Made by a program: the position numbers and the translations under genes
IMG/VR virus record: IMGVR_UViG_2585427764_000006
Strand: one strand, 5' to 3'
Source of the DNA: a virus
Taxonomy: Duplodnaviria > Heunggongvirae > Uroviricota > Caudoviricetes
Length of the DNA: 5,513 nucleotides
Shown: one piece after another, positions 1 through 5,513 of the stretch
Numbering within the stretch: the stretch's first letter is position 1
How the letters are laid out: every line of letters begins with the position of its first letter
The notes under the pieces: model-generated
Told to the model about the DNA's origin: nothing
What the model saw: the letters and a program-made list of their open reading frames with translations, nothing else
Database searches by the model: none

Positions 1-2
1 CG

Positions 3-320
3 GCAAAAGCGTTCGCATACCTGCTGAAACAGTGGGATGCACTGAACGTGTACTGCAGTAATGGCTGGGTGGAAATCGACAACAACATCGCAGAGAACGC
101 CTTACGGGGAGTGGCCGTAGGCCGGAAAAACTGGATGTTCGCGGGTTCCGACAGCGGTGGTGAACATGCGGCGGTGTTGTACTCGCTGATCGGCACATGC
201 CGTCTGAACAATGTGGAGCCAGAAAAGTGGCTGCGTTACGTCATTGAACATATCCAGGACTGGCCGGCAAACCGGGTACGCGATCTGTTGCCCTGGAAAG
301 TTGATCTGAGCTCTCAGTAA
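3..320 (+). CDS. IS66-family transposase, C-terminal fragment (5' end outside window)
   Basis: The frame is open from position 3 (AKAFAYLLKQWDALNVYCSNGWVEIDNNIAENALRGVAVGRKNWMFAGSDSGGEHAAVLYSLIGTCRLNNVEPEKWLRYV...). The EIDNN-AE-ALR...GRKNW-FAGS motif block is, from memory, characteristic of the C-terminus of IS66-family DDE transposases. The GTG at 48 in the ORF track is not the true start. Confidence 0.85.
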   Translation, partial: AKAFAYLLKQWDALNVYCSNGWVEIDNNIAENALRGVAVGRKNWMFAGSDSGGEHAAVLYSLIGTCRLNNVEPEKWLRYVIEHIQDWPANRVRDLLPWKVDLSSQ

Positions 321-321
321 A

Positions 322-350
322 TATCAATACGGTTCTGACGAGTCGCTTAC
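322..350 (-). repeat. Candidate IS66 terminal inverted repeat (right end)
   Basis: The minus strand reads 5'-GTAAGCGACTCGTCAGAACCGTATTGATAT from position 350. The exact IR length cannot be fixed without the left end. Confidence 0.5.
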
Positions 351-351
351 C

Positions 352-1479
352 TTCAGCATCCGGACGTTCGCCAATTTTCGCCTCCCACGTCTCACCGAGC
401 GTGGTGTTTACGAAGGTTTTACGTTTTCCCGTATCCCCTTTCGTTTTCATCCAGTCTTTGACAATCTGCACCCAGGTGGTGAACGGGCTGTACACCGTCC
501 AGATGTGAAAGGTCACGCTGTCCGGCGGCTCAATCTCTTCACCGGATGACGAAAACCAGAGAATGCCATCACGGGTCCAGATCCCGGTCTTTTCGCAGAT
601 ATAACGGGCATCAGTGAAGTCCAGCTCCTGCTGGCGGATGACGCAGGCATTATGCTCGCAGAGATAAAACACGCTGGAGGGGTCATCCGGCGTCCATTTG
701 AGGCCAAACGGCGTCTCTTTGTCGCCAAATTTAAGATACTGCTCCTCCCCGCAGTGCGGGCAGGCAACATGAAAACGCATAAAATGCGGGGATTCACTGG
801 CTGCACGCTCAATCTGGCAGGTGCCTCTCACTTTGGGCGTGGAGCCACGGATGGACTTTGGCCAGACCGAGCCTTCAATACGTTTGTCGCCAAGGAACGT
901 CGGAGAGCCTTCCTGTTCAATATCCTCATCAAAGGCAGCAAGTTCATCATAACCCGCCACATCCACCGACTTTTCACGGTAGTTTTTTGCCGCTTTACCG
1001 CCCAGGCACCAGAAGCCACGACCATTGGAAAAACGCTTCATAGTGAGCGTGTTATCCCGGTGCTTTTTGCCATACCACGGAGCCAGCGCCAGCAGCGACG
1101 GAATATCGCGGATGGTCGGCTCAACGTGGGTTTTCATAAAGTTCTCGGCATCACCATCCGTCGGCAACCAGATAAGGGTGTTGCGCTGCTTATGCTCTAT
1201 GAAGTAGGCATAAACACCCAGCAGCATTTTGGAATAACCAACACGGGCAGACTTCACCACATTCACCTCGCGGACGTAGTCACTGCCCATCGCATTCATG
1301 ATGGCCCGCTGAAAGGGCAGTGTTTCCCAGCGCCCTTCCTGGTATGCGGATTCTTTCGGGAGATAGTAATTGGCATCCGCCCATTCAACGGCGGTCTGTG
1401 GCTCCGGCCGGAACAGTGAGCGAAGCCCGGCGCGGACAAAATGCCGCAGCCTGTTAACCTGACTGTTCGATATATTCAC
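352..1479 (-). pseudogene. A: Terminase large subunit (lambda gpA-like), N-terminal 376 codons, interrupted by the IS66 insertion
   Basis: The translation MNISNSQVNRLRHFVRAGLRSLFRPEPQTAVEWADANYYLPKES...TLGETWEAKIGERPDAE matches lambda gpA as I recall it. Full-length gpA is about 641 aa. After codon 376 the ORF runs into IS-derived sequence (GKRLVRTVLIFTESSDQ...) and stops at 241. The start overlaps the Nu1 3' end by 26 nt, as in lambda. Confidence 0.9.
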
Positions 1480-1999
1480 TCAGCAACCCCGGTATCAGTT
1501 CATCCAGCGCGGCTGCTTTGTTCATGGCTTTGATGATATCCCGTTTCAGGAAATCAACATGTCGGTTTTCCAGTTCCGGAAAACGCCGCTGCACCGACAG
1601 GGGGATCCCGTCGAGAATACTGGCAATTTCACCTGCGATCCGCGACAGCACGAAAGTACAGAATGCGGTTTCCACCACTTCAGCGGAGTCTCTGGCATTC
1701 TTCAGTTCCTGTGCGTCGGCCTGCGCACGCGTAAGTCGATGGCGTTCGTACTCAATAGTCCCTGGCTGGAGATCTGTCTCGCTGGCCTGCCGCAGTTCTT
1801 CAACTTCCCGGCGCAGCTTTTCGTTCTCAATTTCAGCATCCCTTTCGGCATACCATCTTATAACGGCGGCAGAGTCATAAAGCACCTCATTACCCTTGCC
1901 ACCGCCTCGCAGAACGGGCATTCCCTGTTCCTGCCAGTTCTGAATGGTACGGATACTCGCACCGAAAATGTCAGCCAGCTGCTTTTTGTTGACTTCCAT
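1454..1999 (-). CDS. nu1: Terminase small subunit (lambda gpNu1-like), apparently intact
   Basis: The 181-aa product MEVNKKQLADIFGASIRTIQNWQEQGMPVLRGGGKGNEVLYDSAAV... is near-identical to lambda Nu1 as recalled. It begins with the winged-helix DNA-binding region and lies immediately downstream of cosB. Confidence 0.95.
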   Translation of the reverse strand: MEVNKKQLADIFGASIRTIQNWQEQGMPVLRGGGKGNEVLYDSAAVIRWYAERDAEIENEKLRREVEELRQASETDLQPGTIEYERHRLTRAQADAQELKNARDSAEVVETAFCTFVLSRIAGEIASILDGIPLSVQRRFPELENRHVDFLKRDIIKAMNKAAALDELIPGLLSEYIEQSG

Positions 2000-2024
2000 T
2001 GTTCATTCCACGGACAAAAACAGA

Positions 2025-2079
2025 GAAAGGAAACGACAGAGGCCAAAAAGCCCGTTTTCAGCACCTGTCGTTTCCTTTC
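2025..2079 (-). promoter_or_regulatory. cosB terminase-binding R elements (R1/R2-like inverted pair)
   Basis: GAAAGGAAACGACAG at 2025-2039 and its exact reverse complement CTGTCGTTTCCTTTC at 2065-2079 form a perfect 15-bp inverted pair separated by 25 bp. They sit where lambda cosB R1/R2 sit relative to the Nu1 start. An R3-like copy (GAAGAACGGAAATG) is at about 2121-2138. Confidence 0.7.
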
Positions 2080-2176
2080 TTTTCAGGGGGTATTTTAAAT
2101 AAAAACATTAAGTTACAACGAAGAAGAACGGAAATGCCTTAAACCGGAAAATTTTCATAAATAGCGAAAACCCGCG

Positions 2177-2188
2177 AGGTCGCCGCCC
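2177..2188 (-). other. cosN (12-nt cohesive-end segment of the cos site)
   Basis: The plus strand reads AGGTCGCCGCCC, the reverse complement of the lambda cohesive end GGGCGGCGACCT. The flanks also match the lambda ends as recalled (CGCGGGTTTTCGCTATTTATGAAAATTTTCCGG on one side, CCGACAGGTTACG on the other). Confidence 0.85.
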
Positions 2189-2220
2189 CGTAACCTGTCG
2201 GATCGCCGGAAAGGACCCGC
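2189..2220 (-). promoter_or_regulatory. cosQ-containing region (packaging termination element) adjacent to cosN
   Basis: CGTAACCTGTCGGATCGCCGGAAAGGACCCGC is the reverse complement of the sequence that directly precedes cosN at the lambda right end, with apparently one substitution relative to my recollection of lambda. Confidence 0.5.
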
Positions 2221-2224
2221 AAAA

Positions 2225-2239
2225 TGATAATAATTATCA
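2225..2239. promoter_or_regulatory. Fur-box-like 7-1-7 palindrome (candidate iron-responsive operator)
   Basis: TGATAATAATTATCA is a perfect inverted repeat, TGATAAT-n-ATTATCA, matching the core Fur box motif. It lies about 150 bp upstream of the DUF3950 start codon on the plus strand. Confidence 0.4.
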
Positions 2240-2387
2240 TCTGCATGTCACAACGTGCATCTACGCCATCAAACCACGTCAAATAATCAATTATGACGCA
2301 GGTATCATATTAATTGATCTGCATCAACTTAACGTAAAAACAACTTCAGACAATACAAATCAGCGACACTGAATACGGGACAACCTC

Positions 2388-2621
2388 ATGTCAACGAAGA
2401 ACAGAACCCGCAGAACAACAACCCGCAACATCCGCTTTCCTAACCAAATGATTGAACAAATTAACATCGCTCTTGATCAAAAAGGGTCCGGGAATTTCTC
2501 AGCCTGGGTCATTGAAGCCTGCCGCCGGAGACTGTGCTCAGAAAAAAGAGTTTCTCCTGAAGCAAACAAAGAAAAGAGTGACATTACTGAATTGCTCAGA
2601 AAACAGATCAGACCAGATTGA
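2388..2621 (+). CDS. Small basic protein, DUF3950 family (YnfO/YlcI-like prophage protein)
   Basis: The 77-aa ORF MSTKNRTRRTTTRNIRFPNQMIEQINIALDQKGSGNFSAWVIEACRRRL... resembles the small proteins encoded next to noh/Nu1 in E. coli cryptic prophages. Its orientation is opposite to the late genes and the local sequence is AT-rich. Confidence 0.8.
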   Translation: MSTKNRTRRTTTRNIRFPNQMIEQINIALDQKGSGNFSAWVIEACRRRLCSEKRVSPEANKEKSDITELLRKQIRPD

Positions 2622-2677
2622 AGCAATTTAGATAATCGTGCAGACTACACCCCTCATATCACATGGAAGGTACTACA

Positions 2678-3088
2678 ATGGCTCAGGTTGCCATTTTTAA
2701 ACAAATATTCAATAAAGTGCGAAATAATTTAAACTATCACTGGTTTTATTCTGAACTAAAACGTCACAATGTCTCACATTACATTTACTATTTAGCCACA
2801 GAGAATATTCATCTTGTTCTTGAAAACGATAATACGGTTTTAATAAAAGGACAGGGTAAGGTTGTAAATGTAAGATTTTCAAAAAATAAATGCCTTATAG
2901 AAGCCACCTTAAAAGGATTCAAATCAGGAGAGTTATCATTTTACGAATACAGGAAAAATCTTGCTACAGCAGGGGTTTTCAGATGGATTACAAATATCCA
3001 CGAAAACAAAAGGTATTACTATACCTTTGATAATTCATTACTCTTTACTGAGAACATTCAGAACACTACACAAATATTTCCGCACTAA
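2678..3088 (+). CDS. DUF1398 family protein (YbcV/YdfO-like prophage protein)
   Basis: The ORF track gives 2663-3088, but the second ATG at 2678 is preceded by GGAAGG with about 6 nt spacing, so [14 protein letters not shown]... is the likelier start. The C-terminal block [38 protein letters not shown] is characteristic of this family as I recall it. GC content is low, about 25-30% by eye. Confidence 0.8.
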
Positions 3089-3344
3089 ATCATAACGTCC
3101 GGTTTCTTCCGTGCCAGAACCGGACTCGCTGGCATGATGAAATATGTGTACCCGGTAACCCCGGTGTGCATCGTTTTTGATTATTCCCACACACTCGCGC
3201 AGAAGGAGTTCCCCGTCGGGCTACGGTCTCTGTTAATACGGGAATACGGCGACGATACAGCGCATGATGTGTCAGGCTTGAATACCTTTATCCTTTAAAA
3301 GGGATATCAGTTAAGTTATCCCGTGTAGGGTATAAGCCATTATC

Positions 3345-3373
3345 AAAGCCACTCTGTAGGAAGTGGCTTTTGT
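3345..3373 (+). terminator. Candidate intrinsic terminator for the plus-strand moron genes
   Basis: AAAGCCACT (3345-3353) pairs with AGTGGCTTT (3362-3370) around an 8-nt loop, followed by TTTTG. The GC core is only 6 bp, so this is weak to moderate. Confidence 0.3.
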
Positions 3374-3378
3374 AATGG

Positions 3379-3405
3379 CAATAAAAAGCCCCGCGAATGC
3401 GAGGC
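3379..3405 (-). terminator. Candidate rho-independent terminator downstream of the Rz/Rz1 lysis genes
   Basis: On the minus strand GCCTCGC-ATTC-GCGGGGC forms a 7-bp GC-rich stem (one G-U pair) followed directly by TTTTTAT. It sits about 175 bp downstream of the Rz stop. Confidence 0.45.
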
Positions 3406-3579
3406 TAAATCCTGGTATTTGTAATGACTGGCTCTTATCTCAACGCAGCCCCTTACCGCGCGCAAAATGCTCAATATCAAGCATCAGCAATGAGATGTTT
3501 AATCTGGATTCACTCCAGAAGTGAGCACCACCCTGTCTACAGAGCCAGATGTGAAGGATGATGAGTAAAATTATCGCTA

Positions 3580-4047
3580 TCATCGAAGGCATTGCGTCCT
3601 GATGTATTCCTGAAGCGTTCTCAGTGCTGTTTGGTCGCGGATAATTCCGTCCCGGATACCGAGAACGTTTCGTCCAGCAACTGGAGAGAGTTCGACGGTG
3701 GCATCATTGCCCATGCCGGAGGCGCTGGAGGTTTCGGCTGAGGATGGCACAGGGCATTTTCCTTTGACGAGCACCCGACCACCATTATCAAGCTTGCGCC
3801 GAAGAGCATCATTTTCAGCTTTCGCATCAGCTAACTCCTTCGTGTATTTATCATCGAGTGCATCAGCATCACGCTGGCGCTGCTGCATGTCAGTAATGGT
3901 GGCGTTCGCCTTCTCCAGTTCACTGGCCTTGTTATCGCGCTGTTCTTTGTAGGCGATTGCATTATCACGGTAATGATTAACAGCCCATGACAGGCAGACG
4001 ATGATGCAGATAACCAGAGCGGAGATAATCGCGGTTACCCTGCTCAT
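3580..4047 (-). CDS. Rz: Rz i-spanin (inner-membrane spanin subunit)
   Basis: [31 protein letters not shown]... matches the lambda Rz N-terminus with its single N-terminal transmembrane helix and coiled-coil region. The probable start is the ATG at 4047-4045, which overlaps the R stop as ATGA; the ORF track starts 4 codons earlier. The C-terminal third diverges from lambda Rz. Confidence 0.9.
3621..3827 (-). CDS. Rz1: Rz1 o-spanin (outer-membrane lipoprotein), embedded in the +1 frame of Rz
   Basis: [21 protein letters not shown]... has a lipobox (VVGC) followed by a proline-rich segment ([11 protein letters not shown]), and lies wholly inside Rz in another frame, the classic embedded-spanin architecture. 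Confidence 0.8.
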
Positions 4048-4541
4048 TGTTGCCCCCACAAACAGACCTCACGCTCAATCTCACGACGAGTCATCAGGCC
4101 TTTCCATTGCTTACCGCCAGCGTATGCCCAGCGACGTAGCTGGTCACATGCGCCCTTGATATCGCCCTGGTTTATTTTGCGAAGAAGAGTAGATGTTCTG
4201 AAATTGCCTGCGCCCACGTTATAGACGAACGAGTAAAGAGCGCCGCGCGTTGTTTCCGGTATATCGACTTTGATGTACGGGTTAATTTGTCTGGCTACCG
4301 TGGCAAGGTCTTTATTCAGGAGGGCTTTGCATTCTGCTTCGGTATACGTTTTACCGGGAATGATGTCTTTTCCTGTATGCCCGTGACATACAGTCCATAC
4401 GCCAACGATATCTTTGTATGGTATGTAGCTGACACCTTCCAGACCATCGTTACCACTTGGGCCAGTGATTAACACTGATGCTATAGCAATTGCTCCGCCA
4501 CCAATAGCAGCAGCAACGGCTTTTCGTAATGATGGAGGCAT
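4044..4541 (-). CDS. R: SAR endolysin (phage 21 R-type lysozyme)
   Basis: The 165-aa product has an N-terminal Gly/Ala-rich weakly hydrophobic signal-anchor-release domain ([18 protein letters not shown]), then a T4-lysozyme-like catalytic triad at E35, D44 and T50. It is near-identical to phage 21 R as recalled. The start overlaps the S stop (TAATG). Confidence 0.93.
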
Positions 4542-4756
4542 TATTCACCTCTCGCAGCCTTGCGCTTATCTTCTTTAATCTTGAAATAAAGGTTTGTCAG
4601 GTACGTCAGCAGGCCAAATACCAAGCTACCCAGCACACCTATTGCTGCCCACTGTGAGGGCGTGACTTTATCGAGCAACTGTAAAAACCAGTAGCCAGCA
4701 CTGCCTGCGGAGGTGCCGTAGGCAATGCCCGTTGTTAACTTATCCATGGATTTCAT
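4541..4756 (-). CDS. S: Pinholin (phage 21 S-type), dual-start class II holin
   Basis: The 71-aa product [26 protein letters not shown]... has the dual-start motif Met1-Lys-Ser-Met4 (antiholin and holin forms), two transmembrane segments and a charged C-terminus. A strong Shine-Dalgarno GGAGGTGAGGC lies immediately upstream. Confidence 0.93.
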
Positions 4757-4850
4757 AGCCTCACCTCCGCAAATAACGGATGGTGTACACGGTTCGGAAC
4801 GAAGAGGAAAGGTATAGAAGTTACATTAGCGTAAGGCTTGAACATCTATT

Positions 4851-4882
4851 CAAAAAGAAAAACGCCGCGATTATTCTGGCGT
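4851..4882 (-). terminator. Candidate tR'-like intrinsic terminator upstream of S
   Basis: On the minus strand ACGCC-(11-nt loop)-GGCGT is followed by TTTTTCTTTTTG, about 105 nt upstream of the S start codon. The stem is short (5 bp), so this is tentative. The position resembles the lambda late-leader terminator that Q antiterminates. Confidence 0.3.
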
Positions 4883-5002
4883 AGCTGAAAGCATCATACA
4901 ATTATCAAATACGAAAATTACAAAATCATTAAAACGCATCACGTTACATCATGTCTTTTTCTAAAAAAAATCTTGATGAATATTGATGGTGCGTATTACC
5001 GT

Positions 5003-5092
5003 GAAGGAGATCGGTGAGTAACATCGATGGAGATCGGTTCGTGTCACTTTCACAGAACCGTTTTTAAATTACCTTCACTGATCTCCTTCGGT
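5003..5092. repeat. IS21-family terminal repeat cluster
   Basis: GGAGATCGGT occurs as direct copies at 5006-5015 and 5029-5038, the first as GAAGGAGATCGGT from 5003. An inverted copy (GATCTCCTTC, reverse complement of GAAGGAGATC) lies at 5081-5090, overlapping the last istB codons. Confidence 0.5.
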
Positions 5093-5512
5093 CAACGGAG
5101 ATTGTATTTTCCGCATTGATTCTCCTTGAAGTTCGATCTTGATACTGCCATGAACCAGTCGATCTAGGATGGCATCCGCATGTGTGGAGTCTCCGATCAT
5201 TTTGTACCAGTTTTCCACCGGCAACTGGCTCACTACGATGATTGAGCCTCGTTGGTACATCAGATCCACTATTTCCAGCAGGTCGCTACGCTGTTCTGAT
5301 GAGAGAGGTTCCAGCCCCCAGTCATCCAGAAGCAGCAGATCGCTATTATTCAGCCTGGTCAAAAGTTTGCTGTATCTTCCATCAGCATGCCCCTGATAGC
5401 ACTGTTCCATCAGCGCTTTAAGGCGATAATAGTAGACCTTGTATCCCTGTCGGCAGGCATTATGACCAAGTGCACATGCCAGGAACGTTTTACCGCTGCC
5501 GGTGGCCCCGGT
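5075..5512 (-). CDS. istB: IS21-family IstB ATP-binding helper protein, C-terminal portion (5' end outside window)
   Basis: The frame is open to the window edge: TGATGSGKTFLACALGHNACRQGYKVYYYRLKALMEQCYQ... contains a Walker A P-loop (GATGSGKT), then a Walker B-like LLLLDDWG. The ORF track shows only the part from the internal Met at 5410. Confidence 0.88.
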   Translation of the reverse strand, partial: TGATGSGKTFLACALGHNACRQGYKVYYYRLKALMEQCYQGHADGRYSKLLTRLNNSDLLLLDDWGLEPLSSEQRSDLLEIVDLMYQRGSIIVVSQLPVENWYKMIGDSTHADAILDRLVHGSIKIELQGESMRKIQSPLTEGDQ

Positions 5513-5513
5513 C

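What the first reader, a model, noticed from the sequence alone, without database searches (positions are those of the whole stretch)
4985..5513. IS21-family terminus with a triple GAAGGAGATC repeat abutting the lysis module
The istB 3' end (Walker A and B present) is followed by two direct copies of GGAGATCGGT (5006-5015, 5029-5038) and an inverted copy of GAAGGAGATC inside the last istB codons (5081-5090). IS21-family elements are known to carry multiple short repeats at their termini, so this fits, but the precise outer end cannot be called from this window alone.
Basis: partly seen in the sequence, partly recalled or inferred. Interest (0 to 1): 0.35.

Follow-up and report, generated by a model that had tools for sequence, protein, structure and literature searches.

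The report
Right end of insertion sequence ISEc12
The repeats are the normal transposase-binding repeats at the right end of ISEc12, a common and already described E. coli jumping gene, which has inserted just upstream of the lysis genes of a decaying lambda-like prophage.

Summary
Window 4990-5513 is the right (istB-side) end of ISEc12, an IS21-family element. It differs at 1 of 524 bases from a RefSeq copy annotated as ISEc12.

The outer end can now be placed at base 4990 (5'-TGCGTATT...). Four independent insertion contexts and two uninterrupted "empty" sites all lose homology exactly there.

The two direct GGAGATCGGT copies (5006-5015 and 5029-5038) are the cores of the R1 and R2 terminal repeats. 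They lie 23 bp apart, the phasing described for IS21-family ends, where the IstA transposase binds.

The third, inverted copy is at 5080-5089, not 5081-5090. It overlaps the last istB codons (E-G-D). It is part of the element and is kept in seven related elements from other Enterobacterales. Its role is unproven: neither the synonymous-site test nor the RNA-covariation test was decisive.

The element sits 233 bp upstream of the holin gene essD of a DLP12-like lambdoid prophage. It removes the last 14 codons of an AraC-type gene. The far end and the target-site duplication lie outside the window.

Verdict: an ordinary, known element of low interest.

The parts
4990..5513 (-). Right (istB-side) end of ISEc12, an IS21-family element, cut off by the end of the window. 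The element's own sense strand is the window's minus strand.
   Evidence: 523 of 524 nt match the 2581-bp ISEc12 copy in NZ_AP022326. RefSeq annotates these copies as 'IS21-like element ISEc12 family'.
4990..5012 (+). R1 terminal repeat unit, TGCGTATTACCGTGAAGGAGATC. It includes the outermost TG (CA-3' on the other strand) and the core GGAGATC at 5006-5012.
   Evidence: The homology breakpoint at 4990 is seen in 4 insertion contexts and 2 empty sites.
5013..5035 (+). R2 terminal repeat unit, GGTGAGTAACATCGATGGAGATC, with core at 5029-5035, exactly 23 bp from the R1 core.
   Evidence: The 23-bp spacing of R1/R2 and their binding by IstA in IS21-family elements are described in PMC10122671.
5066..5093 (-). 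Inverted internal copy of R1 ('R3inv'). The exact 10-mer GAAGGAGATC is at 5080-5089. It overlaps the istB codons E-G-D-Q and the stop codon.
   Evidence: I11. It is kept in 7 related elements.
5075..5513 (-). 3' part of istB (145 codons plus stop), encoding the AAA+ helper ATPase. Walker A is at 5486-5509 and Walker B at 5321-5338.
   Evidence: Translation. Pfam IstB_IS21, E = 1.6e-45.
4985..4989 (.). Target sequence GATGG next to the IS end. This is the presumed copy of the target-site duplication if it is 5 bp long; it would start at 4983 if 7 bp long.
   Evidence: The empty sites read ...TTGATGG|GGAGGAAC. In 16 complete ISEc12 insertions the duplications are 5 bp (9 cases), 6 bp (2) and 7 bp (5). 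The other copy is not in the window.
4944..4989 (-). 3' remnant (14 codons plus stop) of a 243-aa AraC-type regulator gene of the prophage, cut by the insertion.
   Evidence: The uninterrupted gene is at L006 7594-8325. Pfam HTH_18 and HTH_AraC match it.
4541..4756 (-). Holin gene essD of the DLP12-like prophage. It is the first lysis gene, 233 bp from the IS end, and is given here as context.
   Evidence: RefSeq annotation of the 100%-identical prophage is.

Best explanation
Window 4990-5513 is the right end of a copy of ISEc12, an IS21-family insertion sequence of 2581 bp that carries istA and istB. It inserted into a DLP12-like lambdoid prophage between the late-gene regulator region and the holin gene.

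The two direct repeats are the cores of the R1 and R2 units of the right terminal inverted repeat, spaced 23 bp apart. By homology with IS21 and IS5376, an IstA tetramer binds R1 with its catalytic subunits and R2 with its structural subunits. It synapses this end with the left end, cleaves after the terminal CA-3' (base 4990 here) and, helped by IstB, joins the ends to a target with a short staggered cut.

The third, inverted copy near the istB stop codon is a conserved internal copy of R1. Its most likely role is an accessory IstA-binding site. That last step is inference only.
For: Identity (shown): there is 1 mismatch in 524 nt against a RefSeq ISEc12 copy. The same segment occurs in 4374 of 5426 complete E. 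coli genomes, in many different contexts.

Terminus (shown): the flanks of L001-L004 diverge exactly before TGCGTATT. The other end of the element finishes in ...AATACGCA. The uninterrupted prophage of strain 101EVA and phage IdasGreatGrand are colinear with the window up to base 4989 and then diverge. Forty distinct flanks all abut the same terminal base.

Architecture (shown): GGAGATC-type cores lie 17 and 40 nt from the right end. Four more lie at 23-bp steps at the left end, and each end also has one inverted copy. Target-site duplications of 5-7 bp were found in 16 complete insertions.

Mechanism (from the literature on relatives): IS21-family ends consist of direct repeats L1/L2 and R1/R2 spaced 23 bp apart. 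Two complete repeats are needed for integration. Catalytic IstA subunits bind R1 and structural subunits bind R2. The ends carry a terminal 3' CA and make 5-bp duplications (PMC10122671). ISEc12 with a 5-bp duplication is reported in PMC10711316.

Third copy: it is present in all 7 relatives, from Hafnia, Enterobacter, Erwinia, Arsenophonus, Photorhabdus (2) and Kosakonia, whose last 78 istB codons are 79-89% identical in nucleotides to ISEc12. In the Erwinia element an amino-acid change (Q to R) makes the copy identical to the R1 core GGAGATCGGTGA.
Against: IstA binding to ISEc12 repeats has not been measured here or in any paper I found. It rests on homology with IS5376/IS21.

For the third copy, conservation is not clearly above what protein coding explains. 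38% of degenerate codons with an invariant amino acid are also invariant in nucleotides across these 8 sequences, so two invariant codons give roughly p = 0.15.

IS100, another enterobacterial IS21-family element, has R1/R2 34 bp apart and no inverted third copy. The third copy is therefore not a family-wide requirement.

Only the right end is in the window, so completeness of this particular copy and its duplication are not shown.
Confidence: 0.95

Rival explanations
1. The repeats belong to the prophage, for example as a regulatory or packaging signal near the lysis genes, and not to the insertion sequence.
For: Only their position next to the lysis module.
Against: Both empty-site sequences lack everything from 4990 onward. 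All three copies travel with the IS into unrelated contexts such as plasmid traG, the P2 terminase gene, mobC and ISEc1.
Confidence: 0.01
2. The third, inverted copy acts at the RNA level. It pairs with R1 in the 3' untranslated tail of the istAB transcript to form a long stem-loop that stabilises the mRNA or blocks exonucleases, and does not bind IstA.
For: The minus-strand RNA of 4990-5100 folds to -36.6 kcal/mol, z = -3.56, with only 1 of 200 shuffles folding as well. One pair changes on both sides (A-U to U-A) in the two Photorhabdus elements.
Against: Covariation is not above the shuffled controls: the score was reached by 47 of 500 shuffles, and pairs with changes on both sides by 355 of 500. 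No T-run follows the stem and no minus-strand terminator was detected. Any inverted DNA repeat gives a low folding energy. The same motif recurs five times at the left end, mostly as tandem units that cannot all pair.
Confidence: 0.2
3. The third copy has no function of its own. It is a relic of an old duplication of the end, or it is kept only because it encodes the IstB C-terminus.
For: The synonymous-site test is not significant. IS100 lacks such a copy. The P. asymbiotica element changes the adjacent stop codon from TGA to TAA without apparent cost.
Against: An exact 10-mer (15 nt at 93%) within 100 bp of its partner is expected about 0.01 times in the whole window. The Erwinia element changed the protein (Q to R) towards the R1 DNA sequence. 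The left end carries an analogous inverted copy, and the Enterobacter relative shows a concerted G to A change in L1, L4 and that inverted left-end copy.
Confidence: 0.3

Closest known systems
ISEc12 (IS21 family, E. coli)
   Same: 523 of 524 nt are identical over the part in the window. The terminus, the R1/R2 repeats and the istB gene are the same.
   Different: Nothing of substance differs. There is one substitution (window 5128 G, against T). This particular insertion site was not found in complete RefSeq E. coli genomes, GTDB species representatives or the metagenome collection. It is present in one IMG/VR contig.
IS21 / IS5376 (prototype IS21-family elements with solved IstA-DNA structures)
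   Same: istA plus istB, TG...CA ends, terminal repeats R1/R2 spaced 23 bp apart, and short target duplications (PMC10122671).
   Different: ISEc12 has four tandem units at the left end plus one inverted internal copy at each end. Its duplications vary from 5 to 7 bp, whereas all insertions sequenced for the element studied in PMC10122671 had 5-bp duplications. Sequence similarity of the repeats to those of IS21 or IS5376 was not tested.
IS100 (IS21 family, Yersinia and E. coli)
   Same: Same family and gene pair. It has two direct repeats at the right end, each containing a GATC.
   Different: The repeats are 34 bp apart and not 23 bp. There is no inverted third copy, the repeat sequence is different (GTGGATCA...), and the element is 1954 bp long.
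Phage Mu ends (MuA sites L1-L3, R1-R3)
   Same: Several transposase-binding sites at each end. The IS21 structural paper itself draws the analogy with MuA. From my own memory, one Mu right-end site (R3) is inverted relative to R1 and R2, as the third copy is here.
   Different: The sequences and protein family details are unrelated. The Mu R3 orientation is recalled from memory and was not checked here.

Membership tests
IS21 family | Two consecutive genes: istA (DDE transposase) followed by istB (AAA+ helper ATPase) | tested here: met
   The window holds the istB 3' part (Pfam IstB_IS21, E = 1.6e-45; Walker A and B). Full copies that match the window's 524-bp segment almost perfectly carry istA and istB. 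istA of this particular copy lies outside the window.
IS21 family | Ends of the form 5'-TG ... CA-3' with imperfect terminal inverted repeats | tested here: met
   The ends are TGCGTATT... and ...AATACGCA. The arms are 16 nt long and 81% complementary (I18).
IS21 family | Multiple direct repeats within each end (R1/R2, L1/L2...), typically 23 bp apart | tested here: met
   Cores lie 17 and 40 nt from the right end. Four units at 23-bp steps lie at the left end.
IS21 family | Short target-site duplication (5 bp in the structural study; 4-8 bp for the family from my own recollection of ISfinder) | tested here: met
   5, 6 or 7 bp in 16 complete ISEc12 insertions. It cannot be seen for the window's own copy because the other end is absent.
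IS21 family | IstA binds the terminal repeats and IstB stimulates integration | not testable with these tools
   This is biochemistry. It is inferred from IS5376/IS21.
ISEc12 (named element) | Near-identity to the reference ISEc12 sequence (ISfinder's convention, as I recall it, is over 95% nucleotide identity for the same IS) | tested here: met
   99.8% identity to copies that NCBI's annotation names ISEc12. The ISfinder entry itself could not be consulted.

The most novel reading that the evidence does not exclude
In the ISEc12 subgroup each end carries, besides the tandem 23-bp units, an inward inverted copy of the IstA site. Every one of these sites has a Dam methylation site (GATC) at its core. 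The inverted copies would be accessory IstA-binding sites, comparable to the auxiliary sites of phage Mu. IstA binding would be sensitive to the methylation state, tying transposition to passage of the replication fork as in IS10 and IS50. No paper in the searched library links the IS21 family to Dam.
Probability: 0.12. Interest if true: 0.35.

Novelty: already known. Interest (0 to 1): 0.08.

Why it matters
It matters little beyond annotation. The result fixes the exact boundary of a known insertion sequence at window base 4990. It shows that the window is a prophage fragment bracketed by two IS elements, ISCro1 on the left and ISEc12 on the right, which is probably why the contig ends there.

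ISEc12 separates the prophage's late-gene regulatory region from its lysis genes and truncates an AraC-type gene. ISCro1 truncates the large terminase gene. The prophage is therefore almost certainly defective.

The only open point of some interest is the conserved inverted third copy, which contains a GATC site.

Tried and rejected
1. Apparent GATG target preference. The first four loci and the window all had (G/A)ATG or GGTG next to the end. With 40 distinct flanks the pattern disappears. It arose because BLAST ranked first the hits whose flanks resembled the query.

2. Searches for the source of the window and for the other junction. The exact right junction was absent from GTDB representatives, complete E. 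coli genomes and metagenome contigs. The predicted left junction, with a 3-9 nt spacer, was absent from viral and metagenome contigs. Only IMG/VR contig L034 shares the right junction, and it also ends inside the IS.

3. RNA structure for the third copy. The folding energy is low, but covariation is not above the controls and there is no terminator.

4. Synonymous-site conservation of the third copy was not significant.

5. Junction promoter of the IS21 type. When the two ends are abutted with a 2-4 bp spacer, TTCACG-(16-18)-TATTTT is formed, but it matches only 4 of 6 plus 4 of 6 positions. This is too weak to claim.

6. Generality of an inverted third copy. IS100 does not have one.

Full report
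OBSERVATION. GGAGATCGGT occurs twice on the + strand, at 5006-5015 and 5029-5038. The expectation from shuffles is 0.01, and none of 200 shuffles gave two copies. istB is on the minus strand with its stop codon at 5075-5077. The inverted copy covers the codons E-G-D of the C-terminal ...LTEGDQ*. Walker A (GATGSGKT) and Walker B (LLLLDD) are both present, and the fragment matches Pfam IstB_IS21 at E = 1.6e-45.

IDENTITY. A megablast search of 4700-5513 against complete E. coli genomes matched 4374 of 5426 genomes. The best hits begin at about window 4981-4983 and are annotated 'IS21-like element ISEc12 family helper ATPase IstB'. I fetched four copies in unrelated contexts: next to a P2-type terminase gene, in plasmid traG, next to ISEc1, and next to an IncI1 mobC. 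The element is 2581 bp long, and the window's 524 nt differ from the L001 copy at a single position, 5128. [quoted passage not shown]

EXACT TERMINUS. In the alignment of the window with the four copies, identity starts at TGCGTATTACC, and the base before it differs among the contexts. The other end of the element finishes in ...CATGAAAATACGCA. The ends therefore have the TG...CA form. Independently, the region to the left of the element is 100% identical to a lambdoid prophage of E. coli 101EVA and about 93% identical to phage IdasGreatGrand. Both are colinear with the window up to base 4989 (...TTGATGG) and then continue with GGAGGAACACC, where the window has TGCGTATT. A pattern scan of IMG/VR gave 39 more loci. 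Forty distinct flanks all abut the same terminal base. The outer end of the element is therefore window base 4990.

REPEAT ARCHITECTURE. Counting from the right end, GGAGATC cores start at positions 17 and 40, which is 23 bp apart. An inverted copy starts at position 91. At the left end there are four units at 23-bp steps: GGAGATC, CGAGATC, ACAGATC and GGAGATC. Each of the first three is followed by AATAAC after a 4-nt spacer (nnTnAATAAC); the fourth is followed by ACTTTTGAC instead. A fifth, inverted copy forms a 22-nt inverted repeat, 95% complementary, with the fourth unit.

This matches what is published for IS21-family ends. They consist of direct repeats L1/L2 and R1/R2 spaced 23 bp apart. 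Two complete repeats are required for integration. The catalytic IstA subunits bind R1 and the structural subunits bind R2. The ends carry a terminal 3' CA and make 5-bp duplications (PMC10122671). In 16 complete ISEc12 insertions I found duplications of 5 bp (9 cases), 6 bp (2) and 7 bp (5).

THE THIRD, INVERTED COPY. It resembles R1 beyond the 10-mer. The arms are 15 nt long and 93% complementary (I11), and by eye the match runs to about 22 of 25 positions if two small indels are allowed. It is present in seven related elements found in Hafnia, Enterobacter, Erwinia, Arsenophonus, Photorhabdus (two) and Kosakonia. Their last 78 istB codons are 79-89% identical in nucleotides to ISEc12. In the Erwinia element a Q to R replacement makes the copy identical to the R1 core GGAGATCGGTGA. 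In Photorhabdus the same A to T change appears in both R1 and the inverted copy.

These hints are weak. 38% of degenerate codons with an invariant amino acid are also invariant in nucleotides in this set, so coding constraint alone could explain the conservation. The RNA of this region folds well (-36.6 kcal/mol, z = -3.56), but covariation is not above the controls and there is no terminator. IS100 has two right-end repeats 34 bp apart and no inverted copy.

I therefore treat the third copy as a real, lineage-specific part of ISEc12. An accessory IstA site is the most likely role, an RNA stem-loop or a relic are the alternatives, and none of these is shown.

CONTEXT. The host sequence is a DLP12-like lambdoid prophage. 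On the minus strand it carries essD (holin, 4541-4756), rrrD (lysozyme), an Rz-type lysis gene, nohD (small terminase) and a gpA-type large terminase. In the uninterrupted prophage a 243-aa AraC-type gene (Pfam HTH_18 and HTH_AraC) ends at the position equivalent to window 4944. ISEc12 removes its last 14 codons. The element lies 233 bp upstream of the holin start, between the lysis genes and the antiterminator Q region.

At the other side of the window, bases 1-350 are the end of ISCro1, an IS66-family element (100% identity), which truncates the large terminase gene. IMG/VR contig L034 has the same ISEc12 junction (99.78% identity over window 351-5380) but an intact terminase at that place. 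The ISEc12 insertion is therefore the older of the two.

COMPARISON AND VERDICT. The finding is a correct recognition of a known element. All testable defining features of the IS21 family are met. Identity to ISEc12 is 99.8% against RefSeq-annotated copies, although the ISfinder entry itself could not be consulted. Nothing here is new in kind. The residual curiosity is that every terminal repeat of ISEc12 has a Dam site at its core: there are 23 GATC sites in 2581 bp against about 10 expected, and I found no literature linking the IS21 family to Dam. Each end also has an inverted extra copy. Interest is low.

Noticed in passing
window 1-350: This is the end of ISCro1 (IS66 family), 100% identical to RefSeq copies, with its terminal repeat ...GAGTCGCTTAC ending at 350. 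It truncates the gpA-type large terminase gene (ORF 241-1479, minus strand). The window is therefore bracketed by two different IS elements, which probably explains why the contig ends there.
   Followed up: partly
L034 (IMGVR_UViG_2585427773_000004) 1-5260, against window 351-5380: A second genome carries the identical ISEc12 junction (99.78% identity, 11 mismatches) but lacks the ISCro1 insertion in the terminase gene. The ISEc12 insertion therefore came before the ISCro1 insertion.
   Followed up: partly
window 5008-5011, 5031-5034, 5080-5083; full element L001 3511-6091: Every terminal repeat core of ISEc12 contains a Dam site (GATC). The element has 23 GATC sites against about 10 expected. 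The right-end repeats of IS100 (GTGGATCA) and its left-end counterpart (TGATCCAC) also contain GATC. No paper was found that links the IS21 family to Dam regulation.
   Followed up: partly
L001-L057, complete ISEc12 insertions: The target-site duplication of ISEc12 is not fixed in length: 5 bp in 9 insertions, 6 bp in 2 and 7 bp in 5. There are more 7-bp cases than chance extension of a 5-bp duplication would give.
   Followed up: partly
L001 5954-6017 (left end of ISEc12); L009 1-140: The left end has four tandem 23-bp units plus an inverted fifth copy, which forms a 22-nt, 95% inverted repeat with the fourth unit upstream of istA. In the Enterobacter relative the first, fourth and inverted fifth copies all changed GGAGATC to AGAGATC together.
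   Followed up: partly
window 4944-4989 and L006 7594-8325: The prophage carries a 243-aa AraC-family regulator between the Q antiterminator region and the holin gene. Neighbouring genes encode a YbgA-family protein and a lipocalin. These look like cargo genes in the late operon. The AraC-type gene is truncated by ISEc12 in the window.
   Followed up: no
window 2388-2621 and 2663-3088: Two small + strand genes sit between the lysis and packaging modules: one is YlcI/YnfO-like (DUF3950) and the other is DUF1398 (YbcV-like). This is typical of DLP12-type prophages.
   Followed up: no
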